This document shows positions 9,281 through 52,342 of a stretch of 64,000 nucleotides of DNA, one piece after another (positions within the stretch are counted from its first letter, which is position 1; every line of letters starts with the position of its first letter). The DNA comes from a virus. Below the pieces are notes generated by a model. That model saw only the letters and a list, made by a program, of their open reading frames with translations, searched no databases and had not been told where the DNA came from. The position numbers and the translations under genes were made by a program. The DNA lies in the UHGV virus genome UHGV-0382128, one strand, 5' to 3'.

Positions 9281-9956
9281 ATAAAGCAGCATCCCGTGGG
9301 TCGACACCGACCCACTCTGCCATAAACCGGATATGTTCCTTAAACGGGTTAACGCCGTCTTGTTTGATTTGTTCAACCAACACGCCGGTCAATTCTGGTG
9401 TGAGCATGGCAGGGTGTGTGATGGTAAAGCTTGGAATCGGTTTTTTCAAGTGCGAAGCGTTAAGCTTAATCCACTCGAACCAATCGTACATTATCCAGCA
9501 ATCCCACGCCAATGATAATCTCCCCGGTGTGAGGTCTTCTAACGACCAAGACACCAATTCGACTTGTACGTTATTGTAATACATCCGAAACAGATTCAAA
9601 AAGGCTTGAAGTTCTTCGCCTGTTAAATCCGTATAAGGCCATGTATTGATGGTCAGAGTAGGTTTTTCAATTGGCGAATGCATTTCGATTTCAAGCATCA
9701 TACACTCGAATTCGTTTTTCATCGTTGCCAATAATTCAGTAGGCTGCGCATTAATCAAAGCGCGCTTATCCCGCTTCCGCCACTCTTCATCCCATTTTTC
9801 AAACCCGAGTACACCCGCCCATGCTTCTGTATAGCGACGCCGATAAACATCGTAGTCTAGTAAGGCTAAGCTTTCAGGCTTAATGGCTTTTACCCAACCT
9901 AAACGCGTATCAAATAACGTATCAATATCGATTAAGAAACGTCGAGATAATCTCAT
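9234..9956 (-). CDS. hypothetical protein (240 aa)
   Basis: ORF track; convergent 3' overlap with 8816..9280. Confidence 0.55.
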   Translation of the reverse strand: MRLSRRFLIDIDTLFDTRLGWVKAIKPESLALLDYDVYRRRYTEAWAGVLGFEKWDEEWRKRDKRALINAQPTELLATMKNEFECMMLEIEMHSPIEKPTLTINTWPYTDLTGEELQAFLNLFRMYYNNVQVELVSWSLEDLTPGRLSLAWDCWIMYDWFEWIKLNASHLKKPIPSFTITHPAMLTPELTGVLVEQIKQDGVNPFKEHIRFMAEWVGVDPRDAALFSLARPVQDVQTPPS

Positions 9957-10621
9957 GACGGATGGCCTATGTTGTTACCGATATGCATCGCTTTCAGGTA
10001 CGCTGACCACGTACGCGTTGCTTTAGAACTCGTTCGCTCCGCTCCAGGCAAATCAATACGCCCTTTACCGGTTTGGCGCAGTGATTGATAGAAAGCACGT
10101 TGTAGTGCGTCGTTACCACCACGCGCCCACAAGAACTCTTTCAGTGTCCAGTCGTGACCATCGGAATACATGATGTATGCCTCTGGGAAGGACACCCCGG
10201 ATGCTTTGGAAGGCCCGACGACTTGACCGGAGAGCTTATCGCGGACTTTGTCGTTTTTCGCAACCGCCATTTTCTTTTCTTGCATCTGTGTCTGACGACG
10301 GACAGGCAAGCGTAAGACTAAGTGAGGGTAACGAGTACGATGATAAACACCCGTTTTTGGTTCTGTTAGCCACAGTCGTTGCTCCAGGTTTACCCCGAGA
10401 ATTTTACACACCTCGATATTGCGCAGGTGATCAATTTCGACTTTACTTCCCACCGGGTTGTAAATAGGCAAACCGTTACGAAGTCGGTTAAACTGTTCGT
10501 CGGTCATTCGTGCGAAGGCTTTCTTCGCGGCTTCAGCATTAATGCCAGAAGGGTCTACCAACTTTAAGATTTGTAAGGCGTAGGCTTCCGCCTTTTTACG
10601 CCGCGCTGGTTCGAGTTTCAT
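9953..10621 (-). CDS. hypothetical protein (222 aa)
   Basis: ORF track; ATGA overlap with downstream gene. Confidence 0.55.
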   Translation of the reverse strand: MKLEPARRKKAEAYALQILKLVDPSGINAEAAKKAFARMTDEQFNRLRNGLPIYNPVGSKVEIDHLRNIEVCKILGVNLEQRLWLTEPKTGVYHRTRYPHLVLRLPVRRQTQMQEKKMAVAKNDKVRDKLSGQVVGPSKASGVSFPEAYIMYSDGHDWTLKEFLWARGGNDALQRAFYQSLRQTGKGRIDLPGAERTSSKATRTWSAYLKAMHIGNNIGHPS

Positions 10622-12849: not shown

Positions 12850-13605
12850 ATGAATGTAAATCCACTTGCAGCGTTATCTAGCTTCGCCGCTAAAGCGTCT
12901 GCAATCTTACCGAAAGGCTTTAGTGGCCCTCAACAAGAGATTGCATTAACCACTTATGACGAGATGTCGGACGTTTCCAAGTGGATGCAACAAGAAAAAT
13001 TCCTTCACTTTGCGGGAATGTTGGTTATCGTTCCACCTGGGTTTAATACCTACGTGATGGATCATTTGAACCGCTTAGAATCCGTATGGAGTTCACTGCA
13101 AAACATTTATACGGGTATTCTGTTCCCGGTCGATAAACAACTTTCGGCCCTTACACATGATGTGGGTGTACTGTCATTACCGATTGGTTTCCGTTACAAA
13201 AATGTTAATATACCTTTACGTAACGTTAACCCGAAAGATCTGGTTAACTTGTTAGCGAAATCGTACACTAACAACGTTATTGACCAGCGACCAATCGAGA
13301 AGACGTATCACAGCGCGTCCGAAATTGATGTTGCGTTCAATCGTGCTAAGGCACTGAACGTTGAAATCACAAAACGTCTACGGACAAACATCGACAAGTC
13401 AATCGAGTCTATTCGCACTACGTCAGAAATCTTGTCAGAACAAAACATTCATCCGAATGTAGCAAAAGAACTGACGATGATGTTAGATTTTGCTTCCGAT
13501 TGGGTGGAGCTGTTTGGTTTGTTCATGAAACAGGTTAACGAATTAATCGAATGCCTGAACGTTACTGCCGAACGCTTAAAAGCGCTTAAGGCAAACAAAA
13601 AATAA
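12850..13605 (+). CDS. hypothetical protein (251 aa)
   Basis: ORF track; GAGG SD; TATAAT hexamer at about 12825 upstream. Confidence 0.55.
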   Translation: MNVNPLAALSSFAAKASAILPKGFSGPQQEIALTTYDEMSDVSKWMQQEKFLHFAGMLVIVPPGFNTYVMDHLNRLESVWSSLQNIYTGILFPVDKQLSALTHDVGVLSLPIGFRYKNVNIPLRNVNPKDLVNLLAKSYTNNVIDQRPIEKTYHSASEIDVAFNRAKALNVEITKRLRTNIDKSIESIRTTSEILSEQNIHPNVAKELTMMLDFASDWVELFGLFMKQVNELIECLNVTAERLKALKANKK

Positions 13606-13618
13606 AAAAGTAAAGCTA

Positions 13619-13642
13619 CCCCTAGACCACACGGTCTAGGGG
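13619..13642. terminator. bidirectional rho-independent terminator between convergent genes
   Basis: hairpin cccctagacc-acac-ggtctagggg flanked by A-run upstream and T-rich run downstream. Confidence 0.55.
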
Positions 13643-13650
13643 TAAACTAT

Positions 13651-14550
13651 TTATTTCCCACGATAAAATCCAGAGATGTAGCTTGGCGCTATCCATCGCC
13701 ATTCGCGCCAACGCATTTCTGACATTTTACCACACCATACACGCTTCCAATGAGCACGACGGATATGTGCTGCGCAATAAATCGCCAAACAAACCTCGTG
13801 TCCCTCCTTGCGTTGTTGTTCTATATCTTCCCATTGTACCGGACTTACGTCTAAAACGACCGCTTCACTACGTGGGCGAATCTCTGTATCAGGAACATAA
13901 CGAATGGTCCTCCCGCGAAATTCTTTCTTCTCACGTTCAGTTCGTTTAATTCGCGATGAAAGATATAGTCCGATATAGACGGCGTCGAGTAGTCGTTGAT
14001 TCTCCTTAACCGAAGTAAGGAGCGGCTTTAACTCCACGAAATCATCATTACTTTTATCGATCGTGTAAATCTCAAACTCCATGTATACCGACTCGTCATG
14101 TTCTTCGCATGACATCACAAAGAGAACTTCTTCACCTTCGTAAAGACGTCTTCCGATAAATAACGTGATTGGACATTCGTCGAGATTTACGGTAACCGAG
14201 AAAGTAAATGAAGGGATGGTTTCTATCCAGAAGTACGGGATATTTTTTAGTCTCTCAGTTTTTGCTAAGAGCGCCATCAGTTCTTCATCCGAGATGATTT
14301 CAACAGCAGCGTATTGCCATCCTAGTCCCAGGGACTGCTTAATCAGTCTGGGAATCTGTTCGGTAACGCCATATTCACGATAGGTCGGATCTTTAACTGG
14401 CATAAACGTTACGGGTATTTGTCGTTTATGCTCGTTAATGAACCGAATAAAACGGCACTGATCTAATCCGTGAATTGTTTGGTGTGCTTTTTCTATCTGT
14501 TCGCTCATGCGTCTTAGCGCTTTCCCGTAAAGTCTATTATTCGTTGTCAT
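13651..14550 (-). CDS. hypothetical protein, member of a 2-gene paralogue family with conserved C-terminal AAHIRRAHW motif
   Basis: ORF track, start moved to internal Met (MTTNNRLYG) preceded by AGGAG SD so it no longer overlaps the upstream paralogue; C-terminus AAHIRRAHWKRVWCG. Confidence 0.55.
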   Translation of the reverse strand: MTTNNRLYGKALRRMSEQIEKAHQTIHGLDQCRFIRFINEHKRQIPVTFMPVKDPTYREYGVTEQIPRLIKQSLGLGWQYAAVEIISDEELMALLAKTERLKNIPYFWIETIPSFTFSVTVNLDECPITLFIGRRLYEGEEVLFVMSCEEHDESVYMEFEIYTIDKSNDDFVELKPLLTSVKENQRLLDAVYIGLYLSSRIKRTEREKKEFRGRTIRYVPDTEIRPRSEAVVLDVSPVQWEDIEQQRKEGHEVCLAIYCAAHIRRAHWKRVWCGKMSEMRWREWRWIAPSYISGFYRGK

Positions 14551-14575
14551 TTTAATGCTCCTAAACACTTTTAGC

Positions 14576-15502
14576 TTAATTGTGGGGTACGTAGCCACGG
14601 ACAAATGTAGGTGGAATCCAACAAAGTTTTCTTTTTCTTTCCCCATCTCTTGGACCGACCCAATATCTGCGCCAGTGCGCGCGACGAATATGTGCGGCCT
14701 TGGCGTGTTTGATACCTTCCATGGTTTTCAAGTCGGTGTTAAATCCCTTTAGATATTTCACTTGTTCTGGTGTGATGTCTATTTTAACGTCACGTTCACG
14801 AGGTTTGATTTCGTGACTTATGCTACCATTCTTTTTGATTTCTTTGAACTTAATGTCATTGAAAGACCCTCTGAGATTGGGCGGGATTAGCGTACAGAGA
14901 AATATCAACGATATGGCGGTTTTGGCCAGTGATAACCATAACGTCTTCTCTTGTTCGGTCTGTACGCCAGTTGTATAATCGATTTCAACAAGCCCGTTTC
15001 CAACACTACATATCTCTAACGAGCAGGTGGCGATTGTGGTAACGCCTTCTGTTAACCCGTAATCAGTATTTGTAGCAATTATAATAAACCTTCTATTCCC
15101 ATTTTTTCGATAACCGAGAAAGAAAGTCTCATCTTCTTTACCTACATCGATTGCCACAGTCCAAGTAGGTATAAAGTCCAACCATTCTTCAGGGAATTTA
15201 CTGGGCATCTCAGTCTCGAAAACAAGTTCTCTAAGTGCTCGATCGGATATTAAGGAAGCACCACCGTATAGCCATCCGATCGCCAATGTTTGAGCGTGAA
15301 GGGAACGGGGATCTTTGAGACCTAACTCAGCATCGTAGGGTATAAAGGCATTAGTTAAATGCTTACGATTCTTTTTTATCCATTTCGAGACGGGATTTTC
15401 TTTTGTTTGGTTTTCTTCCATGACATTTTCTAGATGCTGACTCCCCATTTGTCTAAGGCAGTCTTTAATACCTTTTACTTTTTTACTTTTGTACAAATAC
15501 AT
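14576..15502 (-). CDS. hypothetical protein, paralogue of 13651..14550
   Basis: C-terminus AAHIRRAHWRRYWVGP...WIPPTFVRGY parallels the neighbouring gene. Confidence 0.55.
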   Translation of the reverse strand: MYLYKSKKVKGIKDCLRQMGSQHLENVMEENQTKENPVSKWIKKNRKHLTNAFIPYDAELGLKDPRSLHAQTLAIGWLYGGASLISDRALRELVFETEMPSKFPEEWLDFIPTWTVAIDVGKEDETFFLGYRKNGNRRFIIIATNTDYGLTEGVTTIATCSLEICSVGNGLVEIDYTTGVQTEQEKTLWLSLAKTAISLIFLCTLIPPNLRGSFNDIKFKEIKKNGSISHEIKPRERDVKIDITPEQVKYLKGFNTDLKTMEGIKHAKAAHIRRAHWRRYWVGPRDGERKRKLCWIPPTFVRGYVPHN

Positions 15503-15560
15503 GGTATATTCTCCTAAAATGGTTAAAAAAGATAGAGGGACGCTTTAGCGTCCCTCTAAG

Positions 15561-16046
15561 TCAATCATCTTCGGTAAGTTCAGGATGGTGGGTTTTTAAG
15601 TATCCCCATATCTGAATGGCGAGTGGCTCTTGATTTTCTAGAATCATCTGCTTTATTTTAGACTTCGACCCCCCATTCCAAATTTCCTTATAAAGTTTTC
15701 TCCATTCCTCACAAGCATAAAGAACGGTTGTTGTCGGATTTATAGGTAATGAACGATCGTTGTCTAAGAGTTTGACTGTACTATCTAGGATAATGTTAAG
15801 ACATGTTATTATATCTGCTTTTGACACGACAGACTTATCGGAGGGAAAGAAATTAGGCAGATGGCCCATTATAACGCTTTTATAGGTTATCGTAATAAAT
15901 TTACCCACGGCGGTTACCATCCATGGTTCAGCTTTTCTAGATACGTACAAATAAGATGGTAACTGTTTCTCTATTAAATCTATATGGTTTAAAAACAAGT
16001 GAGTAATAGCGCTATTACTCGGCTTAATGATGTTATTTATGTACAT
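15561..16046 (-). CDS. hypothetical protein (161 aa), tandem paralogue A
   Basis: ORF track; shares EEW.K.Y..IW...L..W..LK..P pattern with 16076..16561. Confidence 0.5.
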   Translation of the reverse strand: MYINNIIKPSNSAITHLFLNHIDLIEKQLPSYLYVSRKAEPWMVTAVGKFITITYKSVIMGHLPNFFPSDKSVVSKADIITCLNIILDSTVKLLDNDRSLPINPTTTVLYACEEWRKLYKEIWNGGSKSKIKQMILENQEPLAIQIWGYLKTHHPELTEDD

Positions 16047-16075: not shown

Positions 16076-16561
16076 CTATAGTGACACGTAAATAGGATAA
16101 TTAGCTTTCAGCCACTCCCATAGCTGTAAGGAAAGTAGGTTTTCATTACGTTCGATGATTTCCATGATTTCGTCCAAGTTAGAATCTTCAACCCAAATCC
16201 GGGTATAAAATTTTTCCCATTCCGGTTCTGTATAAGGGACTAGAGGAGTAGGGAATCGCTCCATGTGGTACGCATCAGAAACTTTCTTTAAGAACTCGTC
16301 GCGACCATGGCGTAGGCGTTGCCGAACGTCTGTTTCTGTTATGCGCTTGCTTGATAGATCGGAGAAGTCAAATAGGCTAAATATGTATTGCGTTAGACAC
16401 CGAGAAGAAAAGTAGGACGCGGCATAAGCCGCCATCCAAGGAGTGTCTGCAACCAACGGAGTCAACTTTTCTTCAATTTCTTTTCTTACACGTGTTTCGT
16501 TATTGAGAAATTCATGTACGATATCGCAGTTACGAATATCGAAGATATGATTTAAGTTCAT
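16076..16561 (-). CDS. hypothetical protein (161 aa), tandem paralogue B
   Basis: ORF track; same length and C-terminal pattern as 15561..16046. Confidence 0.5.
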   Translation of the reverse strand: MNLNHIFDIRNCDIVHEFLNNETRVRKEIEEKLTPLVADTPWMAAYAASYFSSRCLTQYIFSLFDFSDLSSKRITETDVRQRLRHGRDEFLKKVSDAYHMERFPTPLVPYTEPEWEKFYTRIWVEDSNLDEIMEIIERNENLLSLQLWEWLKANYPIYVSL

Positions 16562-17089: not shown

Positions 17090-17632
17090 TTATACTCCTT
17101 TAGGTTGTCCGTATTTTGACGATAGGTAGATGAGTTCAGCATGGCAGATTTTCTCAACTAACCCGAGTGTCTCAAGGAAAATATCCCGGATACGGGACAT
17201 CGTTTCGTTGGTAAGAATATCGCTCCAACATGTTGTGTCTATTATATCCGTCGTTGAAGATTGGCGCTGCAATATTGCGACATACACTTCGTCGAGGCTA
17301 TCTGGTGCATTATTCTGTAAGTAATGGGCGGCATGTAGAAAGGCTTTCTCAAGAATCAGCTGAATATCCGTATCGGGATCAGTTACCCGTACTAAATGCG
17401 GGTATGTCATAGCCGAACTGATTTTTATCACTAACTGCTCAACGAGGTTATTCACCATCGCTTCTGAATCCAGGATAGTAATATCAGCTCCATCGTGTTC
17501 TTCAGAAATCTTATTCTCATGCACTGCTATCGCATCGTGTAATTCAAACGCAACGCGACTTCGCATCTCACTTAACACTTTGTTTAATTTGTCCCGTGAC
17601 TCGCTGAGTGAGAAATCGATAAGTATTTTCAT
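17090..17632 (-). CDS. hypothetical protein (180 aa)
   Basis: ORF track. Confidence 0.5.
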   Translation of the reverse strand: MKILIDFSLSESRDKLNKVLSEMRSRVAFELHDAIAVHENKISEEHDGADITILDSEAMVNNLVEQLVIKISSAMTYPHLVRVTDPDTDIQLILEKAFLHAAHYLQNNAPDSLDEVYVAILQRQSSTTDIIDTTCWSDILTNETMSRIRDIFLETLGLVEKICHAELIYLSSKYGQPKGV

Positions 17633-18411: not shown

Positions 18412-19080
18412 CTATCTAAGAATATTTTTAATGAAAAAAGGATCGGCTGTAAACTCCTTCACTTGTGAGTCATAACCCGAATGTATTTGATCGCTACTGA
18501 GCAAATACTGGTCTAGGTCGTGCGGAAGAATCCAAGAATCACCTTGCTTAAAAATACCATAATCTGCTGTTCCTGCGGAAAAAATGATTTCCTCTGGAAA
18601 CGAATAGACACGGCGTAAGGCAAGATCGGATGGCTTTAACACGATTAATCGAACGGGATGTTGACTGACTGCCTCTTTAATAAACTGTTCACGATTAAAC
18701 CAAATTATTTTTTCGGGGTAAGTTTCGAATTCAGCCCATGCCCGCGTGATAACTAATTTGGAAATCTTTCTCAATTCTTCAGAACGCTCTGCGTAGCCGA
18801 TGCACTCCTTGCGTACTTCATGATTTTCTATCGATGTTGTGAATTTTTGGAATAGGTGTTGTTGGAAAAAGCCGTTCTCCGGGATATCACAACCCGCGTT
18901 GTATAGTGCTATGATCTCCCACAACAACGAAAGAGAAAACACAAATGCTAACTTTTCCACAACTTCCCAATCTTCGGAGTAAGGGGCTTTAAAGCCCCAA
19001 TACTGCCGTGCGTTATACATAAAGTGAGTTTGTAAAAACCGAGGGGCTTTTGACAAGACCTCACTATAAACGATCAGCAT
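18412..19080 (-). CDS. hypothetical protein (222 aa)
   Basis: ORF track. Confidence 0.5.
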   Translation of the reverse strand: MLIVYSEVLSKAPRFLQTHFMYNARQYWGFKAPYSEDWEVVEKLAFVFSLSLLWEIIALYNAGCDIPENGFFQQHLFQKFTTSIENHEVRKECIGYAERSEELRKISKLVITRAWAEFETYPEKIIWFNREQFIKEAVSQHPVRLIVLKPSDLALRRVYSFPEEIIFSAGTADYGIFKQGDSWILPHDLDQYLLSSDQIHSGYDSQVKEFTADPFFIKNILR

Positions 19081-43730: not shown

Positions 43731-46700
43731 ATGGCTGTCGTCTTAGACCCACACTTCAAAAAACCGGGGAATAAAATAACCGGTGAAGCGGTCGCCGTCA
43801 TTGGTACGAAATACCGAATGTTGGTACCTGCCCACGCCCCTTTTTTCACCACATCCCTGGTGGTCAAGAGCGGCGGCAAAATACTGACCTTAGGCGACGA
43901 TTACGTTATTACACACTCGTACGAGACTGGTATGTTGCGCACAGCCTATCTCATTCACGGGATGATTTGGATTGTTAATGACAAATACAAATCGAACTTT
44001 ACTGTAGATTACCATGCTGTTGGTTGTGGTGAAGCAACCCAAGAGCAGATTACCGCAGAGCGCGAGCTTAATAAAGGTAAATACCCCTCCGCGTGTCAGT
44101 GGGACACCGTTATCGGAGACGTTTACTTTCCACCGGTCGATATCCAGTTCGATTGGGAGAATTGGAAAGGTGAACTGGAGCTAATGCAGGCCATTGCTGG
44201 GGTAGGCGATTCGTTAGGGGAAGTCGTGAGTCGTCTTAACCCAATCGCACGCAATACACTGGATTTGGAATATCGTGCTAATAGCAAGGTTATCACTTCC
44301 GAGCAGTATGCTGCGTACGATAATAAAGGCGGTTTCACCTACAACACAGCTCGCCACCGTTATAGCCTGAGTTATAAAGCGACAACCTTTAACAACTATT
44401 CCCTGTCGGTGAAACACAGAATTCCTGCTATTCTGCCAGACATGACAAAGTTGAATCCGAACGAACAGATCGATTGGATGCTCTGTTATGCCAACGGCGG
44501 TGCAAGTATTCTACGGTTACAGCTAAAACAGCGCAAAATCTCACTGGTCTTAACTGTCGCTATTGGCAGTGGTTCAACAAACTACGATTATACTTTAATC
44601 AACGGTTTAACTGACGATGAGTTAAAAAACGATATCGATTTTAGTGTAACCCGACAACCCGGAAACGGCGTTTACGTAATCGTAGTAAAAACAAATAAAC
44701 AGACCATGGATTATACGTTCAACGTAGATACGCCGCCTGATGAGTTCTCGGCAGGGTATTCGAAAACGGATGTAGCCAAATGGTTGAAGTCTAAAACGAA
44801 CATTAACCTGAACTGGTATGCGGCTGAAAACGATTATGTTCAAATTCGTTCTTTACCCGGCGCGCCGGAGCCTGACGTCGATAACGATGTTTACCAGTTA
44901 ATAGTTAAGTATCATCAGTTGGTTGAGCAGCTGTATCGTAATGCGCCTGCGCACGAACACATCACACGTAAGGACAACCCACACACAGATACGTGGGGTC
45001 CGATCCGTGCGTTAGAGTTGAACGGTATTGCGTCGGATGCAGCATTAGCTTACGGAAAAACGAAGCCGCAGTTAACGGATTATGTTAATGCTAAGTATCC
45101 AACACAAGCGACGCTGACAGCACAAAAGAAACTATTGCGCACGTCAGCTACGAAAACGGCTAACGGAACTATTGGAACGCTGCCCGGTTTTACTTCGTTC
45201 ACGACGGAAGTTGACCCGGTGTCAATGTCGAAATACGTGAGTCCTCGTTTTAGCGAAAGCTACGTTAGTAATGGTCACAGGTATCACGGTGCGCTTCGTT
45301 ACACAGGAACGAAGAGTGGATTCGCCACTTCTTTTAATGCGGTACCTGCTAACCTGCAAGATATTGACTTTATTGTTACCGGACGTAAAACAGCGTCTGG
45401 TAATGAAGCTGTCGGTACGGTTAGCCTACGTTTCTATCAGAAACCTGGTACTAACTCTGGAAAATTTATCCAGCTTACAGGTGAAATTTCTGCGGGTAAA
45501 GTCGGCGTTAAGTTGGAACTGAACGGTTTTTCGAATCCCACACCGGAAGTTCAGTATCTTTCCCAAGCTCCTAATCCAGCAATACCGGATGGGGATTTTA
45601 CGCTGCGTTTTCAACTGAAACGCACAGGGAACGTGTTTGATGTCGTTATTACCATAAACGGCAAGACATACAGTGCACGTGTTAACTTCACTAACATGGA
45701 CGCTGCACTAGAAGCATTGGAGAATAGCCACCACTTTAAATCATTGATCAGTAATGTTGCTGACAACGTCACTATTAGCTCGGGGAATAAAGGTAACACG
45801 GTTACCATTAAGAAAGCGCCCGACGTCGTTGACGGGACCCGTTTAGGTGCCCAGTTTGTCGTTGACCCGAAATCCATTAAGTTTATTGGACAAGGTTCAA
45901 CCGAGGTTAATGTGGGGAATAACCCGGTAACGTTTCAAGCAGGTATTAACCAGCTTATATTGTATCCTGATGATCGTGGATTACAGTGGCGTGGTAAGAA
46001 ACTCTTAGACCCCACTACCGTGGCTCCGTATCTGCCAGGCAATACCGCGGGCGGTACGGGATTATTCTACGGTACATCTACAACCACGGTAGAGCTTACC
46101 GGTAGCGGGATAAAAGCATCGCCGTTCGTAGCGACTTTTATTCTCCCTACCGCGACAGATACAACAGCCCTGGCAGCTTGGCAGTTGACTGATGAGTTTG
46201 GTACCGCTGAAAACCTTGCAGCAACGCCAGCACTGATTGAAAAACTCGATGCGGAGTTCACCGGTAAATTAGTTGCGGTTAAATCGTACATTAACGATAT
46301 GCAACTTACCAGCTCGGTCACTATCGACAAAATTACCTTTGGTTTAGGTAACGTTGCGAATACACCCGATGTCAATTTACCGATTTCTACAGCACAACGT
46401 GCGGAGTTAGATAAATACTCGCCTAAAGTTCACCAACACCCGTTTACCGCTTTTGGTACTGGGAACGCAACCACAGCGAAACGTGGTCTGATTAAATTTG
46501 GTCTGGATGTGGATGATGCGACTTTAGCACTCGATGGGAGTGTGGTAATGGCGCAGACCTCCCAGATTGAAAAATTGGAAAATGCTGTCGGTGGCGTTGA
46601 CTCGGGTGCTCGCGTTGACATTATTCGTTTCGGCAAGTCTGGTGACGACTTAATTAACGTTACGGTTAAAGACAAAATTCTGGCTATGCTCCCCGCTTCA

Positions 46701-48053
46701 ACGTACTTTGTTGGTGGTGAGACGTATGACGTACCGTTAATGTCGGTTAACGTCACTGAACGTTTCCCGAATCCGAAAACGTTGATCTACGCAGGAATTT
46801 TTGTTGATATTGTTGACAACAAAGCGAAGTATGTTATCCACGACAGCTACAATCAGGCTGAAACGGATACCATGACGCGCGTGGGAAGACTCGTTGTCAA
46901 TGAGCTTTCCGAAGTGGACGTAGTGGAATTGCGTAACGTGACACGATTAGGCGAATTCCACGAGCTGAAAGACCACATCGCTAATGACAACGCACACATT
47001 CAACGTTCTGCTTCGCGTGCAGTATTGGGGTTAAGTGATTTAACAGTAGGTGCACCTTGCTGGGCTTCTGGACTCCAGGCAGTAGTGCGTGGTGAAGCAG
47101 ATTGGCGTTATGTTGTTCGTGGACAGTATAAAGCCTTAGACGGGGTGAAATACGACCAGATCGCATCAAAGTGGATTTTCGATGCGAAAGGGGTAAGTGA
47201 CAACGTTCACGGGTTTATTCACAACTTATTCCCGACTTTCAAAAACGCAGGAATGCGGGTAAGTTGGGAAACAGAAAGCAACGCAAAAACCGGAACAGTG
47301 TTAGAAACTGTTTTAGGTTGTTGGAAGAACAACGACGGCGAGTTTATGCGGTTGTCATTACTTATCACTCGCGGTTATCGTTTAACTGACAGTAACGGTG
47401 AATATTGTTACGCAGGGTTCGGTTTGAACTTCGGTAGCGGGAAATCGGTAGTGGTAGGTTTCACACCAACGAAGCGTGTTACGCCTGCACCGTGGAGTTC
47501 ATTACGACCTGACGTAACGTTTACCCACACCCGTGGTGCAAACAACGCAATAACGTTTAATGCATCGCTGACTTTAGCTGGCACTGTGTATACTATCGTG
47601 GTGTTTTTATCCGCGACAGATAAATACGTAAGCTGTACGGCGGCAGGGGGAACTACGCAGAAAATCCCATTAGCCGACCGTTTAACCGGGTTCAATATCG
47701 AACCTATCGTTAATGATCCGTATACCCCTATTTACTACGGTTTAGGGGGACTTTATGAGGATGAGGTTCGTGCCAACATCCGCTCTACAGCAGACAGCGC
47801 AACTGCGAACAAAGTCTACGGTACGTTGTTGGACTATGTTAGCAACTATTCCTCATTAAATCGAGTACGCGTCATGGAATTGTCCGGTGTCAGCTCAGAC
47901 CCCGAAACGCTTAATGCGTTAGTGGCAACTGAATTTAATAACAACCTGGCAGATTACGCTGCGTTACCGATACCTCCTTATCTTAACAAGGAGCGCGTAA
48001 TGTCGTTTATCGACACCGACAATAAAGTGCAGGCGGTAATCATTCGCGATTAA
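43731..48053 (+). CDS. tail fibre protein 1 (1440 aa)
   Basis: very large Gly/Thr/Ser/Asn-rich protein; ATTAKRGLIKFG-type fibre repeat; N-terminal region paralogous to the next three genes. Confidence 0.6.
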   Translation: MAVVLDPHFKKPGNKITGEAVAVIGTKYRMLVPAHAPFFTTSLVVKSGGKILTLGDDYVITHSYETGMLRTAYLIHGMIWIVNDKYKSNFTVDYHAVGCGEATQEQITAERELNKGKYPSACQWDTVIGDVYFPPVDIQFDWENWKGELELMQAIAGVGDSLGEVVSRLNPIARNTLDLEYRANSKVITSEQYAAYDNKGGFTYNTARHRYSLSYKATTFNNYSLSVKHRIPAILPDMTKLNPNEQIDWMLCYANGGASILRLQLKQRKISLVLTVAIGSGSTNYDYTLINGLTDDELKNDIDFSVTRQPGNGVYVIVVKTNKQTMDYTFNVDTPPDEFSAGYSKTDVAKWLKSKTNINLNWYAAENDYVQIRSLPGAPEPDVDNDVYQLIVKYHQLVEQLYRNAPAHEHITRKDNPHTDTWGPIRALELNGIASDAALAYGKTKPQLTDYVNAKYPTQATLTAQKKLLRTSATKTANGTIGTLPGFTSFTTEVDPVSMSKYVSPRFSESYVSNGHRYHGALRYTGTKSGFATSFNAVPANLQDIDFIVTGRKTASGNEAVGTVSLRFYQKPGTNSGKFIQLTGEISAGKVGVKLELNGFSNPTPEVQYLSQAPNPAIPDGDFTLRFQLKRTGNVFDVVITINGKTYSARVNFTNMDAALEALENSHHFKSLISNVADNVTISSGNKGNTVTIKKAPDVVDGTRLGAQFVVDPKSIKFIGQGSTEVNVGNNPVTFQAGINQLILYPDDRGLQWRGKKLLDPTTVAPYLPGNTAGGTGLFYGTSTTTVELTGSGIKASPFVATFILPTATDTTALAAWQLTDEFGTAENLAATPALIEKLDAEFTGKLVAVKSYINDMQLTSSVTIDKITFGLGNVANTPDVNLPISTAQRAELDKYSPKVHQHPFTAFGTGNATTAKRGLIKFGLDVDDATLALDGSVVMAQTSQIEKLENAVGGVDSGARVDIIRFGKSGDDLINVTVKDKILAMLPASTYFVGGETYDVPLMSVNVTERFPNPKTLIYAGIFVDIVDNKAKYVIHDSYNQAETDTMTRVGRLVVNELSEVDVVELRNVTRLGEFHELKDHIANDNAHIQRSASRAVLGLSDLTVGAPCWASGLQAVVRGEADWRYVVRGQYKALDGVKYDQIASKWIFDAKGVSDNVHGFIHNLFPTFKNAGMRVSWETESNAKTGTVLETVLGCWKNNDGEFMRLSLLITRGYRLTDSNGEYCYAGFGLNFGSGKSVVVGFTPTKRVTPAPWSSLRPDVTFTHTRGANNAITFNASLTLAGTVYTIVVFLSATDKYVSCTAAGGTTQKIPLADRLTGFNIEPIVNDPYTPIYYGLGGLYEDEVRANIRSTADSATANKVYGTLLDYVSNYSSLNRVRVMELSGVSSDPETLNALVATEFNNNLADYAALPIPPYLNKERVMSFIDTDNKVQAVIIRD

Positions 48054-48063
48054 GGAGAATTTT

Positions 48064-51000
48064 TTGATGAAAGCGTATCCTTACGATCCTCGGGGGACGA
48101 AAACCGAGAATCACTTCTTAGAGGAGCGTATCATCGGGTCAGAAAACAACAACGATCGGGTGGTGATTTTAGACCATCGCCCGTTCTTTGAAGATTTAGT
48201 CGTCAGACAACCAGGTTCAACCACCCCACTGAGTCGTGGGGTGGACTACGAACTGCAATATCAGCTGACGGAACTGGATGACTCGGTAGCAGCCAACGTG
48301 TATTGTGGGGTACACCTTATCAACCCTTCCATCAAAGGCATCGTAACCTTTGAAGGACAAATGCTCGGCGGTACGTTCTACGACCCGTTTGTTGATATTC
48401 TCGATGAGCTGGTGAAATATTTGAATAACCCAGTCAGCGCTGACTGGCTGTTATTAGACGGTAGACCGTCGTTATATCCAGCGACGCCTGCGGCAACGTC
48501 TTGGGCGGATTTGCTAAACAAAAAATATTTAGCGTCGGCAGTCCACGATGTTGAATTGAAAACCGATGACGCTAACCAGTTAATTAAAGATAAATTAGCC
48601 GAAGTTAAAGCGTTAGTCGCCGCGCTGGGTAAAGAAATCGAGGCATTTAACTACCCGGCACACATCGCGGAAACCAACCCGCACCAAACTACTTCTGCAC
48701 AGATTAGCGCACATCCTGTTAACTTGAAAACACCCGACACCTTTATGGCGTACGGGTTAAAGTTGAAAGCACTGACGGATGAACTGAAAGCGTTTCGTTT
48801 ACCACAGTCAGTTATCGACACGTATATCTCTCACTGGATTTCTTCGGAAGTACGGGGTGTGTTTAACTGCACGGTGTCAGGAAACCGTGCACAGTTCCGC
48901 TCAAAAAACGGTGAGTCAGAAATCATTTTTGCGAATGATGGCTTTACGTTAAAATCCAACGGTTCTGTAGTGTTAGCGGTAGGGCATCTGGAAGGAACGG
49001 GTGCAGGACGTTACATTAACTGGCGTGCTGGTAAAAACACGTTACGCATCGAGTCAACGGGCGATGCTTTAGGGATGAACAAACTTACCCTAAACGGTAA
49101 CCCGTTACTGACCACCACAGCATTGATGGAATACCAACAGGACCCGGATGCTGGCGGGAGCGGTGGCGGTGACCCTGACGACTCAAAGGTGTACATCGAA
49201 GGCCGTAATGGGATTAGCTTCACCGGTAAAGGCTCTCGGACCGATCCTATCGTGGGTACTATCGAACCGACGAAAGCGACAACCACCGAAAAAGGTGTTG
49301 TTAAGCTTAAAACTGGTAAAGGTACAGAAATCGTTGGGGTTGCAGCAACTCCGGCTTCGTTAGCGCCATATGCGACCGACCTATCGGGGTATGTGGCTAA
49401 AACGACCATGATTAACGGTAAGCCGATGAATGACGGCTCCAGGACAATCACGAAAGCTGACCTGGGGTTAGGGCAAGCGGATAATACCGCAGATCTTGAC
49501 AAACCGTTGTCAACCAAGTTAACTGAGGCGGTTAGCGGTCTAGCAGATGTGGGCCATCATCACGATTGGTCGGAGTTAGGTATTTATAAAGCCTCTCAAT
49601 CTGTTTACGGTATCGGTCGTTATGCAACTAACCAGAACGGTTTGGTTGAAAACCGTGCAGTGGTACCGAACATCCTAAAAGAGCTTTCGGCACGTTTAAG
49701 TGTGGTCGCTGCGGCAATTGCAAATGCGAAAGAAGGAACAGTCACGGATTTCGCTGCTGTAAAAGGCGCAGACTGGCGATTTAATAGCCAGGGTACGGCA
49801 ATCTCCGTTCAGGATTTGAAATATTTCTATTTGCTGGACGGCACGAAAGGTGACAGCACCGTTACCGGTGCGATTGACCTGCAAACCACTCCGATGTTTA
49901 ACTGGTTCTCACCGAACAACCAACTTGAGCTGACTTGGCCTACGGGTAAGGTGAGTAAAGGTACCGGGATTAGTTGGGATGGAATTGTTGATCCCCCAAC
50001 AATGGGGTTTCAGTCAGTTCCGGTAGGTAAAAGCGCCACCCAGATGGGCGTTCAGTCCGTTGTATCGGTACTGGCTAAAACGCGCGTCAAAGCTCGTCAG
50101 AAAAGGCTGTTTGTTTATGCCGCTGGCGGTGGGACAATAACCGTTTATGTAAATGGTGTTGTAGCCGCTACTGGTGCGTCGCCATTGTTAATGAACTATG
50201 GAACGTCTCCAGATGTTGAAAACTACACAATTGCTGTTAAAGCAGAGTGTAGTGACACGGCTAAATCTGCAGCGGTACAGTTCGAAGTTTACGATGGTGA
50301 CTACCCCGTTTATTTCAGTGGTCCTGAAACGCGTGTAGATCTTCTCCAGGAGTTTGTCACAACGCATGTAGGTATTCGTCATTATTTGTACGTTAACATG
50401 CTCACAGGCTCTCTGTATTCGCGTGCTGAACCAGTTCAAGGATTTGAGGTCGATCCAGAACGCGGATATATCGGTTATGTTGATATCGTTCCTGGTCAGT
50501 CTTACGCGAATAAAACCGTGGGATTTGAAACCACGTTTGATTTCGGGAAAAGTGCGGAAGTTAGCGAGCATAATAGTATTCGTAAGGCACACGGTCTCAA
50601 CGCTGCGGACTGGTCACTGACGGATAACCCACGGTTGCCGTTATTAAACCGTGCTATTGCCGAACCAAGAGCGTGTATCTTTAGGAAACCGTTAGCAACC
50701 GCTACAGGGGATGTTTTCCATCTTGTCAGTCGTGGCCTTTATACCTACGCACACAACCAAAACGTGAAGTCGAGTCTTCAATACGTTGTGATACCTGAAG
50801 GTGCTACGCCGTATTGTTGGTTTACACCATTTAACCCGAAAGAAAACAACGCACCGACATTCGAAGGCTCGTTTGCGTTCGATGTTGACGATGTTGGTGG
50901 AACGCAAGCCCTTGCTGCTGCGCCGGATTTGGTTCTATGCACGTCAACGCAAGGTAGCAGCGTTAAACGTCGCTATCTACGCATTGACCTAACTACCAAA

Positions 51001-52248
51001 GCCTGTAGGCTGGGGATTGGTTCCCGTTCAGATTCTGCCGTTACAGATATTCCGTTAGTGATGGAGGAGTCTGGGGAAACGGCGGTGGTCGCAACGTTTA
51101 AGGATGTGTTGTTCAACGGCGAGGAAACCAACCCCGCGGCACTCGACTTGATAGGTTGGGGTGCCAGCCGAGATAAAATTTCTGCAAACCATGCACCTCG
51201 TGGCATGATTCGCTATCGTTACAACGTAAACACTCGGGTATTACGTTTAGCACTGTCGTTCTCACAGTTCGGAACGACAACAGTTAAACATCGACAGCTG
51301 GAGATTCAATTCCCGTTCGATTTAGTGGATTATTTCACTGGCGACGGTGTGGGATTGTCGTTTAAAGAACTGTCTGCGAAATGCCGTGTAACGATTAGTC
51401 ATGCACTGATTGATCCGGCTACGAGTAACGTCGACATTGATAAGTACCATTACTTACGTTCGTTGTTCGAATCGTATCTGGATTCGTCCGTTGGGTATTT
51501 GGCTGATACCAAAGACGTTGATTTTAGTCAGTCTGTGATTGACCCTGCGACTTACGAGGTTAGTCAAAAATACCGCGTTACAGAAAGCATCGCGCTGCCA
51601 ACCGGCCAGGGAAGTGTTGCTGTTTCCCATGACGGCCAGTTGCCTGCGCAGTTCTTTGACCGTAAGCTGTCTCGTGGTGCCTTGATGGCCAAGAAAGGTG
51701 AACTCAACACTTCCTGGAATAATGAGTGGAGCACGACTAAAGCTGCTGCGAGTCGTTATCGCCATAAACTCATTCTACGCTTTGCACAAGGTGCTGATAA
51801 ACAGCAGTATCGCGTTGCAAAAGTGGCCGGGACGGTGAAGTCTAACTGGCCGGGTAAAGTGATTATCGGTGATGCCGGGAAGGACCCGTATGTATCGGCT
51901 ATTGATAGCGTATCTTTTGCGCTTTCGACCGCCTCTGATACAGGTAAAGCGATTACTCTTACGCCAAAGGACTTACGTGTAGGTCAGGACATTTATATTG
52001 TCTTAGAACCACCCGGCAATAATCCAGAAGGTTATGAACTTAACTTCACTTGTTCGTTAGATGTCACTGACGAGAAAAGTGTCCGTCAAGATCAACTCAA
52101 TGCACAGAGTTTCGAACTCCGTAGCGGCGAAAGTCAGTTCTTAATGGAGAAACGCAACCCGTACCACATCACGAGTAAAGCGTGGAAGTGGATTCTGGCT
52201 GTACTGAAACGAGAACTTAACGGGAAGCAGTTAGGGGATCGTACTTAG
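48064..52248 (+). CDS. tail fibre protein 2 (1394 aa)
   Basis: TTTEKGVVKLKTGKGTEIVGVAATPASL resembles the T4 gp12/gp34-type fibre repeat; HHHD metal-site-like motif. Confidence 0.65.
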   Translation: MMKAYPYDPRGTKTENHFLEERIIGSENNNDRVVILDHRPFFEDLVVRQPGSTTPLSRGVDYELQYQLTELDDSVAANVYCGVHLINPSIKGIVTFEGQMLGGTFYDPFVDILDELVKYLNNPVSADWLLLDGRPSLYPATPAATSWADLLNKKYLASAVHDVELKTDDANQLIKDKLAEVKALVAALGKEIEAFNYPAHIAETNPHQTTSAQISAHPVNLKTPDTFMAYGLKLKALTDELKAFRLPQSVIDTYISHWISSEVRGVFNCTVSGNRAQFRSKNGESEIIFANDGFTLKSNGSVVLAVGHLEGTGAGRYINWRAGKNTLRIESTGDALGMNKLTLNGNPLLTTTALMEYQQDPDAGGSGGGDPDDSKVYIEGRNGISFTGKGSRTDPIVGTIEPTKATTTEKGVVKLKTGKGTEIVGVAATPASLAPYATDLSGYVAKTTMINGKPMNDGSRTITKADLGLGQADNTADLDKPLSTKLTEAVSGLADVGHHHDWSELGIYKASQSVYGIGRYATNQNGLVENRAVVPNILKELSARLSVVAAAIANAKEGTVTDFAAVKGADWRFNSQGTAISVQDLKYFYLLDGTKGDSTVTGAIDLQTTPMFNWFSPNNQLELTWPTGKVSKGTGISWDGIVDPPTMGFQSVPVGKSATQMGVQSVVSVLAKTRVKARQKRLFVYAAGGGTITVYVNGVVAATGASPLLMNYGTSPDVENYTIAVKAECSDTAKSAAVQFEVYDGDYPVYFSGPETRVDLLQEFVTTHVGIRHYLYVNMLTGSLYSRAEPVQGFEVDPERGYIGYVDIVPGQSYANKTVGFETTFDFGKSAEVSEHNSIRKAHGLNAADWSLTDNPRLPLLNRAIAEPRACIFRKPLATATGDVFHLVSRGLYTYAHNQNVKSSLQYVVIPEGATPYCWFTPFNPKENNAPTFEGSFAFDVDDVGGTQALAAAPDLVLCTSTQGSSVKRRYLRIDLTTKACRLGIGSRSDSAVTDIPLVMEESGETAVVATFKDVLFNGEETNPAALDLIGWGASRDKISANHAPRGMIRYRYNVNTRVLRLALSFSQFGTTTVKHRQLEIQFPFDLVDYFTGDGVGLSFKELSAKCRVTISHALIDPATSNVDIDKYHYLRSLFESYLDSSVGYLADTKDVDFSQSVIDPATYEVSQKYRVTESIALPTGQGSVAVSHDGQLPAQFFDRKLSRGALMAKKGELNTSWNNEWSTTKAAASRYRHKLILRFAQGADKQQYRVAKVAGTVKSNWPGKVIIGDAGKDPYVSAIDSVSFALSTASDTGKAITLTPKDLRVGQDIYIVLEPPGNNPEGYELNFTCSLDVTDEKSVRQDQLNAQSFELRSGESQFLMEKRNPYHITSKAWKWILAVLKRELNGKQLGDRT

Positions 52249-52286
52249 GACAGACTGCCTGCGGGCAGTTGTGTGTCCGTAGGTAA

Positions 52287-52309
52287 CCCCTCCCTGTAAT
52301 GGGGAGGGG
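52287..52309 (+). terminator. rho-independent terminator inside the tail-fibre operon
   Basis: hairpin cccctccc-tgtaat-ggggagggg followed by tatccattttattt. Confidence 0.55.
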
Positions 52310-52342
52310 TATCCATTTTATTTAAAAGTAGGAGTCTTTACG

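What the first reader, a model, noticed from the sequence alone, without database searches (positions are those of the whole stretch)
13651..15502. Paralogue pair with conserved C-terminal His/Arg/Trp motif AAHIRRAHW(K/R)R.W.G
Two adjacent approximately 300-aa proteins share a near-identical C-terminal basic motif (AAHIRRAHWKRVWCG... and AAHIRRAHWRRYWVGP...WIPP) despite divergent upstream sequence. The His/Arg/Trp-rich signature looks like a nucleic-acid or metal-binding site; I cannot assign it to a known family from memory.
Basis: seen in the sequence. Interest (0 to 1): 0.45.

Follow-up and report, generated by a model that had tools for sequence, protein, structure and literature searches.

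The report
Tandem AcrVA2-like genes in jumbo phage
The two neighbouring phage proteins with the shared His/Arg/Trp motif are real paralogues of a named family, AcrVA2-like, whose founding member silences one specific host protein by destroying its mRNA during translation; this is a new example of a known kind with unknown targets.

Summary
Two adjacent minus-strand genes, B (14576-15502, 308 aa) and A (13651-14550, 299 aa), both carry AAHIRRAHW. They are homologous over about 280 residues, not only at the motif (BLASTP E=4e-20, 23% identity).

Both belong to the AcrVA2-like family (Pfam PF26125).
- An HMM built only from canonical family members hits B at 1e-34 and A at 3e-21, and nothing else in the window.
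- Profile-profile probability is 99.9%.

The motif is the family's HxRxxH signature. In AcrVA2, H286A, R288A and H291A abolish Cas12a mRNA downregulation but keep Cas12a binding (Marino et al., bioRxiv).

The genes form a terminator-bracketed bicistron in a jumbo phage syntenic with the nucleus-forming Erwinia phage Asesino, which has one copy. Among near-identical relatives, codons 1-220 of B are a divergent cassette (48-82% nt) and the C-terminal 85 residues are identical.

Most likely each protein is a target-specific, translation-coupled mRNA silencer with a different, non-Cas12a target. It is a new member of a known kind, of moderate interest.

The parts
14576..15502 (-). Gene B, an AcrVA2-like protein of 308 aa. 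It is the copy closer to the single-copy orthologues of other jumbo phages.
13651..14550 (-). Gene A, an AcrVA2-like protein of 299 aa. It is the more divergent paralogue.
   Evidence: ORF. AGGAG at 14562-14558 lies before ATG 14550, 25 nt after the stop of B. Orthologues P0004 and P0005 start at the same place. The canonical-family HMM gives E=2.6e-21. Its orthologues in related contigs are labelled PF26125 AcrVA2-like.
14672..14692 (-). HIRRAHW in B (H271, R273, H276). This is the family's invariant HxRxxH effector motif.
   Evidence: It aligns to AcrVA2 H286-I-R288-R-G-H291-W.
13747..13767 (-). HIRRAHW in A (H262, R264, H267).
14594..14716 (-). C-terminal domain of B (residues 263-303), made of four short beta-strands that carry the motif and the WIPP element. 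This is the constant module.
   Evidence: Secondary structure of the model. It is 98% identical among B orthologues that are 68% identical overall. A profile of this domain alone finds only AcrVA2 in the PDB, at E=1.8e-11.
14843..15502 (-). N-terminal and central domains of B (codons 1 to about 220). This is the variable module and the presumed target-recognition part.
   Evidence: Among near-identical relatives, nucleotide identity drops to 48-82% exactly over these codons and returns to 93-100% after them. The central part is 41-51% identical at protein level among orthologues.
15533..15558 (-). Terminator-like hairpin plus T-run between the upstream 161-aa gene and B.
   Evidence: 11-bp stem with 7 GC pairs and tail TCTTTTTT.
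13616..13645 (.). Bidirectional terminator-like hairpin after A, shared with the convergent gene 12850-13605.
   Evidence: 12-13-bp stem with 7 GC pairs, scored on both strands.

Best explanation
The locus is a two-gene operon of a jumbo phage related to the nucleus-forming Erwinia phage Asesino. It encodes two paralogous AcrVA2-like (PF26125) proteins.

Shown here: both proteins belong to the family by sequence profile. B also belongs by fold. Both keep every residue shown by mutagenesis to matter in AcrVA2 (W79, D89, H286, R288, H291).

Inferred by homology with AcrVA2: each protein uses its N-terminal and central domains to recognise a particular polypeptide, probably as it emerges from the ribosome. 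It then uses the constant C-terminal HxRxxH module to trigger loss of the mRNA encoding that polypeptide, so the target is never made.

Inferred from context: the two copies have different targets. The targets are host or rival-element proteins other than Cas12a. The recognition part evolves, or is exchanged, as a cassette under arms-race pressure. How the motif causes mRNA loss is unknown for the whole family. It could act as a nuclease itself, recruit a host RNase, or cause ribosome stalling.
For: Family membership:
- phmmer of B against the PDB finds only AcrVA2, E=1.7e-4, on the motif.
- A profile of the window clade finds 648 representatives, and 149 of the 153 listed carry HxRxxH.
- The family profile matches AcrVA2 over its full length at E=2.9e-46, and at 4.8e-45 without any window sequence.
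- hhalign of the window clade against canonical members gives 99.9%, E=7e-34, over 281 columns.
- The canonical HMM against all 386 window ORFs gives B 1e-34 and A 3e-21, with nothing else.
- Orthologues of both genes carry the precomputed label PF26125 AcrVA2-like.

Conserved functional residues: W77/W78, D87/D88, H271/H262, R273/R264 and H276/H267 in B/A.

Mechanism of the prototype: AcrVA2 lowers Cas12a mRNA in a translation-dependent way. Motif mutants still bind Cas12a but no longer lower it. Homologues occur on megaphages, mostly without Cas12a.

Modularity: the C-terminal 41 residues are 98% identical among B orthologues, while the central domain is 41-51%. In relatives whose flanks are 93-100% identical in DNA, only codons 1 to about 220 of B diverge.

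Accessory-island context: flanking core genes are 85-97% identical to relatives, against 63-64% for A.

Operon structure.
Against: - No functional data exist for any jumbo-phage member.
- The AcrVA2 mechanism rests on one preprint plus conference reports, and its biochemical step is unknown.
- Identity to AcrVA2 is only about 11-20%.
- The jumbo-phage clade lacks the third histidine of the HWH that is conserved in about 90% of the family, so effector chemistry could differ.
- A was not modelled structurally.
- Different targets for A and B are inferred only from 23% identity and independent conservation of both copies.
- Foldseek against the PDB did not recover 7CI1.
Confidence: 0.6

Rival explanations
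1. They are genuine type V-A anti-CRISPRs. One or both recognise Cas12a of the host and block its synthesis, exactly as AcrVA2 does.
For: Same family and fold, with all five mutationally defined AcrVA2 residues conserved. Huge-phage proteins clustering with AcrVA2 have been proposed as Acrs.
Against: - Relatives of this phage are linked to Enterobacter, Erwinia, Salmonella and Escherichia. To my knowledge, untested here, Cas12a is rare or absent in these genera.
- Marino et al. state that homologues are typically found where Cas12a is absent.
- The syntenic relative Asesino forms a phage nucleus, which already shields DNA from DNA-targeting CRISPR nucleases.
- AcrVA2's Cas12a-peptide contact residues D129 and D195 lie in segments that are insertions or variable in the family profile.
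- Identity to AcrVA2 is about 11% in the structural alignment.
Confidence: 0.07
2. They act like FinQ as originally described: inhibitors that lower transcript levels of a rival mobile element (a plasmid or co-infecting phage) at the level of transcription or termination, rather than by translation-coupled decay.
For: FinQ is a family member. It inhibits F-plasmid transfer and lowers tra mRNA by an undetermined mechanism. Variable-cassette evolution fits conflict between mobile elements.
Against: The only mechanistic dissection in the family points to dependence on translation and on the target's amino-acid sequence. In a nucleus-forming phage, transcription of phage DNA is separated from the cytoplasm. 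This rival differs from the best explanation mainly in target class and in the step affected, so the two overlap.
Confidence: 0.15
3. The conserved C-terminal module is a nucleic-acid- or metal-binding element used for the phage's own DNA or RNA transactions, as suggested by the neighbouring UvsX, RNase H, exonuclease and SbcC genes. It would not be a weapon against a specific host protein.
For: The motif is rich in His, Arg and Trp. The neighbours are replication and recombination genes.
Against: - Core replication genes are 85-97% conserved among relatives, while A and B are 63-90% and copy number varies between one and two. That is accessory-gene behaviour.
- The family is spread over plasmids, prophages and phages of many bacterial classes.
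- The third histidine is not conserved in this clade.
Confidence: 0.1
4. The shared motif is a chance or low-complexity similarity between unrelated ORFs.
For: None beyond the basic composition of the segment.
Against: BLASTP E=4e-20 over 280 residues. Both hit the same PHROG, phrog_6160, at 3e-19 and 4e-38. There are 648 database relatives with the same invariant residues.
Confidence: 0.01

Closest known systems
AcrVA2 of Moraxella bovoculi prophage (PDB 7CI1/7CI2; Pfam PF26125 AcrVA2-like)
   Same: - Same length class, about 300-320 aa.
- Same C-terminal HxRxxH-W...W.G...W.P signature.
- Same conserved N-terminal Trp and Asp.
- Also encoded on a mobile element.
   Different: - Only about 11-20% identity.
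- The third histidine (H293 of HWH) is replaced by R or K.
- Encoded by a lytic jumbo phage of Enterobacteriaceae rather than a Moraxella prophage.
- No acrVA1 neighbour.
- Present as a tandem pair.
- The target is almost certainly not Cas12a.
- No functional data.
FinQ, fertility inhibitor of IncI/F-like plasmids in E. coli
   Same: Reported as an AcrVA2 homologue with the conserved HxR motif and a similar predicted C-terminal domain. It lowers mRNA of a rival element's genes. It shows that the family has non-CRISPR targets.
   Different: It is plasmid-borne and directed against F transfer genes. I did not align FinQ itself here, because no sequence was in hand, so the relation is taken from the paper.
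Asesino gp235 and single-copy homologues in Erskinevirus and SPN3US-like jumbo phages (phrog_6160)
   Same: Direct orthologues in the same syntenic slot: UvsX, then a 99-aa gene, a convergent 251-aa gene, the AcrVA2-like gene and small genes. All are annotated as hypothetical. They share the clade-specific HMRRAHW[RQ] variant.
   Different: Those phages have one copy, while this phage and its Enterobacter-associated relatives have two. Identity is 25-30%.
TTC5-mediated tubulin autoregulation in mammalian cells (works-like analogue named by Marino et al.)
   Same: Recognition of a nascent N-terminal peptide on the ribosome leads to decay of the mRNA being translated.
   Different: No sequence or fold relationship is claimed. 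It is a eukaryotic host pathway, not a mobile-element weapon.

Membership tests
AcrVA2-like (Pfam PF26125) | Significant full-length match to a profile of canonical family members | tested here: met
   An HMM of 44 canonical representatives, with no window sequences, gives B E=1.1e-34 and A E=2.6e-21. hhalign gives 99.9%, E=7e-34. The same HMM matches AcrVA2 7ci1_A at 4.8e-45. The local Pfam copy lacks this model, so hmmscan gave nothing even for canonical members. The PF26125 label comes from precomputed annotation of close orthologues.
AcrVA2-like (Pfam PF26125) | AcrVA2 fold: helical N-terminal domain, mixed central domain, small four-stranded C-terminal domain | tested here: met
AcrVA2-like (Pfam PF26125) | C-terminal HxRxxH motif (AcrVA2 H286, R288, H291), essential for mRNA downregulation | tested here: met
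   B has H271, R273 and H276. A has H262, R264 and H267. These positions are invariant in 110 aligned members.
AcrVA2-like (Pfam PF26125) | Conserved N-terminal Trp and Asp (AcrVA2 W79, D89; partial loss of function when mutated) | tested here: met
   B has W77 and D87; A has W78 and D88. The Trp column is 93% conserved and the Asp column 67%. Mapping to AcrVA2 uses, where PDB chain numbering is natural numbering plus one.
AcrVA2-like (Pfam PF26125) | Third histidine directly after the motif (HWH; AcrVA2 H293) | tested here: not met
   B has R278 and A has K269. The whole jumbo-phage clade has R/K/Q, whereas 135 of 149 representatives have H. This residue has not been tested by mutagenesis, so it is a common feature rather than a proven defining one.
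AcrVA2-like (Pfam PF26125) | Translation-dependent, polypeptide-specific lowering of a target mRNA | not testable with these tools
   This needs expression, RNA-seq and pull-down experiments.
Type V-A anti-CRISPR (AcrVA2 in the strict sense) | Inhibits Cas12a; host carries a type V-A system | not tested
   No host genome was examined. Context argues against it: the relatives are linked to enterobacterial hosts, the syntenic relative forms a phage nucleus, and the family is mostly found without Cas12a.
FinQ-type fertility inhibitors | Encoded on a conjugative plasmid and inhibits transfer of a co-resident plasmid | tested here: not met
   The locus lies in a jumbo-phage genome, among virion structural proteins, UvsX, a split RNA polymerase gene, and in synteny with Asesino. 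The one 'plasmid' hit is a 222-kb non-mobilizable circular record collinear with the phage.

The most novel reading that the evidence does not exclude
The pair may be a two-barrelled, nascent-chain-directed gene-silencing system of a nucleus-forming jumbo phage. A constant HxRxxH effector tail would be fused to exchangeable recognition heads, with a cassette boundary at about codon 220 of B. Each head would be tuned to a different host defence or rival-element protein that matters even to a phage whose DNA is shielded, for example RNA-targeting or abortive-infection immunity. If so, swapping heads would re-target the silencer. These tractable enterobacterial phages would then offer a route to the first non-Cas12a, non-plasmid targets of the family and to the unknown mRNA-decay step.
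Probability: 0.3. Interest if true: 0.65.

Novelty: new member of a known kind. Interest (0 to 1): 0.35.

Why it matters
AcrVA2 is so far the only bacterial-world example of a protein that recognises a specific nascent polypeptide and eliminates its mRNA. Two questions about the family remain open: what the hundreds of homologues without Cas12a target, and how the HxRxxH module causes mRNA loss.

This locus adds no new principle, but it offers three useful things.
- It has two diverged copies side by side in one operon, which is a natural specificity comparison.
- In relatives that are otherwise nearly identical, only the head of one copy has been replaced. That is a natural domain-swap series.
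- The hosts are genetically tractable enterobacteria.

It also shows that current annotation pipelines still call these genes hypothetical. A simple motif or profile rule would label them.

Tried and rejected
- Local Pfam and NCBIfam scans gave no hit for either protein. Canonical family members also gave none, so the libraries at hand lack the PF26125 model; this is not evidence of novelty. A weak AAA_19 match (E=0.16-0.28) is noise.
- Megablast of the locus against the phage collection found no match.
- The profile of only the seven close sequences hit AcrVA2 more weakly (E=0.033) than B alone, because the shallow profile was over-specific.
- The first AlphaFold run with 7 sequences was unusable (pLDDT 49). 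The run with 110 sequences worked.
- The afdb50 library was unavailable.
- BFVD returned only uncharacterised jumbo-phage proteins, plus one entry, 'putative mycothiosynthase', which I regard as a mis-annotation.
- A profile of the C-terminal domain alone was searched against the PDB for a hidden nuclease or RNA-binding relative. Only AcrVA2 is real. The apparent hit to the Bdellovibrio RNA pyrophosphohydrolase 3EES (E=8e-4) is the sum of two insignificant pieces 85 residues apart, and I rejected it as chance.
- A third paralogue in the window was looked for and not found.
- The neighbouring 174-aa and 180-aa genes are not paralogues of each other or of the 161-aa genes.
- dN/dS was not attempted, because the variable head is too diverged (about 50-60% nt) for reliable synonymous rates.

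Full report
**What is there**

The region holds two adjacent minus-strand genes.
- Gene B runs from 14576 to 15502 (308 aa). It is preceded by a strong hairpin plus T-run at 15558-15533 and by AGGAG nine bases before its ATG.
- B ends with TAA at 14578-14576. Twenty-five bases later, after another AGGAG, gene A starts at ATG 14550 and runs to 13651 (299 aa).
- The longer mechanical ORF for A (to 14646) overlaps B and is not supported. The database orthologues of A begin at the 14550 position.
- A 12-13-bp GC-rich hairpin at 13645-13616 scores as a terminator on both strands. It separates A from the convergent gene 12850-13605.

B and A therefore look like a bicistronic unit bracketed by terminators.

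**Checking the observation**

- Both proteins contain AAHIRRAHW followed by [KR]R.W.G and, about 12 residues later, W-I-[AP]-P.
- In the six-frame translation of the whole 64-kb window the pattern occurs only at these two places.
- The proteins align over about 280 residues at 23% identity with E=4e-20, and both match the same PHROG of unknown function, phrog_6160.

The similarity is not confined to the tail, however. A second conserved block lies near residue 75-115: GW.Y....ISD...L...TE....P..W...IP.

**Identifying the family**

- A plain phmmer search of B against all PDB sequences returned one hit, the anti-CRISPR AcrVA2 (7CI1), E=1.7e-4. It aligned HIRRAHWRRYWVGP...CWIPPTFV with HIRRGHWHGYWQGT...RWQPAVFV.
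- Close database homologues of both A and B carry the precomputed Pfam label PF26125. The gene tables name this family 'AcrVA2-like'.
- The Pfam and NCBIfam copies I could scan do not contain this model. Even canonical members score nothing there.
- An exhaustive HMMER search with a profile of the window clade found 648 cluster representatives at E<=1e-3. Most are 300-380 aa with the match running to the C-terminus. Of the 153 listed, 149 contain HxRxxH.
- A profile of 110 of these matches AcrVA2 over its full length at E=2.9e-46.
- A profile of 44 canonical members, containing no window sequence, matches AcrVA2 at 4.8e-45. The same profile picks out B (E=1.1e-34) and A (E=2.6e-21) and nothing else among the 386 ORFs of the window.
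- Profile-profile comparison of the window clade with the canonical set gives 99.9% probability, E=7e-34, over 281 columns.

Membership in the AcrVA2-like family is therefore established by sequence for both genes and by fold for B.

**What the motif is**

Across the 110 aligned members, the only invariant positions are H271, R273, H276, G283 and W295 in B numbering. W77, P104, P112, W281 and P298 are at least 90% conserved.

The PDB chain is numbered one higher than the natural protein. On that basis:
- H271, R273 and H276 in B correspond to AcrVA2 H286, R288 and H291.
- W77 and D87 in B correspond to AcrVA2 W79 and D89.
- A has the same residues at 262, 264, 267, 78 and 88.

Marino et al. 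(bioRxiv 10.1101/2022.11.29.518452) report the following.
- AcrVA2 lowers Cas12a mRNA and protein more than ten-fold, independently of promoter and codon usage.
- It needs the target's start codon and its N-terminal LSKT residues.
- H286A, R288A and H291A abolish this activity while the mutants still co-precipitate Cas12a. W79A and D89A give a partial loss.

How it causes mRNA loss is explicitly unknown.

There is one clade-specific difference. The histidine that normally follows (HWH) is present in 135 of 149 representatives. It is R in B, K in A, and R/K/Q in all jumbo-phage relatives. This argues against a conserved three-histidine metal site, at least here.

**Genomic setting**

- The window encodes UvsX-like recombinase, RNase H, an exonuclease, SbcC, a split RNA-polymerase beta subunit and three giant paralogous virion proteins.
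- The block from UvsX to the AcrVA2-like gene is collinear with Erwinia phage Asesino gp238-gp235. Asesino is a nucleus-forming member of the Chimalliviridae.
- tblastn finds single-copy homologues of 21-31% identity in Asesino-like Erwinia phages and in Salmonella and Escherichia jumbo phages. All are annotated hypothetical or not annotated at all.
- The tandem pair is present in the closer relatives: a 224-kb ENA contig, 201-kb and smaller Logan contigs, and a 222-kb circular non-mobilizable 'plasmid' of Enterobacter ludwigii (NZ_CP134650.1). That record is evidently the same kind of phage.
- B is nearer to the single-copy orthologues than A (121 versus 78 bits to gp235). A is therefore the more derived duplicate, and the duplication predates the split of these phages.

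**Evolutionary behaviour**

Against the relatives, flanking core genes are 85-97% identical in protein. A is only 63-64% and B 68-90%. The small genes just upstream are 30-61%.

Among B orthologues that are 68% identical overall, residues 263-303 are 98% identical while residues 113-215 are 41-51%.

The clearest evidence comes from three relatives whose flanks are 93-100% identical in DNA.
- The B gene drops to 48-82% nucleotide identity starting at its start codon.
- Identity returns to 93-100% at about codon 220.
- The last 85 residues are identical in protein.

This is a cassette-like replacement or rapid diversification of the N-terminal and central domains on a constant C-terminal module. 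In AcrVA2, the residues that contact a Cas12a peptide in the crystal (D129, D195) lie in segments that are insertions or variable in the family profile. This fits the variable part being the specificity determinant.

**Most likely mechanism**

- Shown: family membership, fold (for B), conserved functional residues, operon structure, a variable head and a constant tail.
- Inferred from the prototype: each protein binds a specific polypeptide, probably co-translationally, and its HxRxxH tail triggers loss of the corresponding mRNA.
- Inferred from context: A and B have different targets, and these are not Cas12a. Three points support this. Marino et al. say homologues are typically found where Cas12a is absent. 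A phage nucleus already shields DNA from such nucleases. From my own knowledge, not tested here, the enterobacterial hosts of these relatives are not known for Cas12a.

I put about 0.97 on family membership, about 0.6 on the translation-coupled silencing mechanism with non-Cas12a targets, and less on the two-targets detail.

The rivals are a true anti-Cas12a function, a FinQ-style transcript-level inhibition of a rival element, a role in the phage's own nucleic-acid transactions, and chance. They are scored in the rival list.

**Novelty and verdict**

The family is named and has a crystal structure. Its presence in megaphages has been noted. The motif has been mutated in the prototype. The finding is therefore a new member of a known kind, not a new family.

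Three points go modestly beyond what I found in the literature: the conserved tandem pair in an Asesino-related phage lineage, the sharp head-cassette boundary, and the loss of the third histidine in the jumbo-phage clade. The family's targets outside Cas12a and F-plasmid genes, and the decay mechanism, remain open. This locus would be a practical place to study them. Interest is 0.35.

Noticed in passing
window 15561-16046 and 16076-16561 (minus strand): Two adjacent 161-aa genes directly upstream of B are paralogues (BLASTP E=2e-16, 26% identity). They have no PHROG match. Relatives L002, L005 and L007 have only one such gene, so 15561-16046 is an extra copy that does not align to them (4-7% identity in the DNA alignment). 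The shared copy is only 30-40% identical to relatives. It is a second hypervariable, duplicating gene family next to the AcrVA2-like pair.
   Followed up: partly
L005 = NZ_CP134650.1 (Enterobacter ludwigii 51A:C 'plasmid unnamed1', 222,441 bp, circular): A record deposited as a non-mobilizable plasmid is collinear with this jumbo-phage region gene for gene (exonuclease, RNase H, small genes, both AcrVA2-like genes, UvsX-like and others). It is presumably a jumbo-phage genome assembled with its host. It points to Enterobacter as a host genus for this phage group. All genes in the stretch except two are annotated hypothetical.
   Followed up: partly
window 43731-57529 (plus strand): Three consecutive giant genes (1440, 1394 and 1728 aa) cross-match each other's PHROG families (phrog_7557, 8078, 7449, 2163; virion structural proteins). 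They are a paralogous set of huge structural proteins typical of SPN3US- and Asesino-like jumbo phages.
   Followed up: no
window 17090-17632 and 18412-19080 (minus strand): Two further genes of unknown function in the same block are much less conserved against close relatives (60% and 57% protein identity) than their neighbours (82-97%). The accessory, fast-evolving zone therefore extends beyond the AcrVA2-like pair.
   Followed up: no
window 9953-10621 (minus strand): A 222-aa ORF matches an RNA polymerase beta-subunit PHROG (phrog_3233, E=6e-93). This fits the split multisubunit RNA polymerases of chimalliviruses. The corresponding Asesino gene gp240 is annotated only as a putative virion structural protein.
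   Followed up: no
whole window: ARAGORN found no tRNA or tmRNA genes in the 64 kb.
   Followed up: yes
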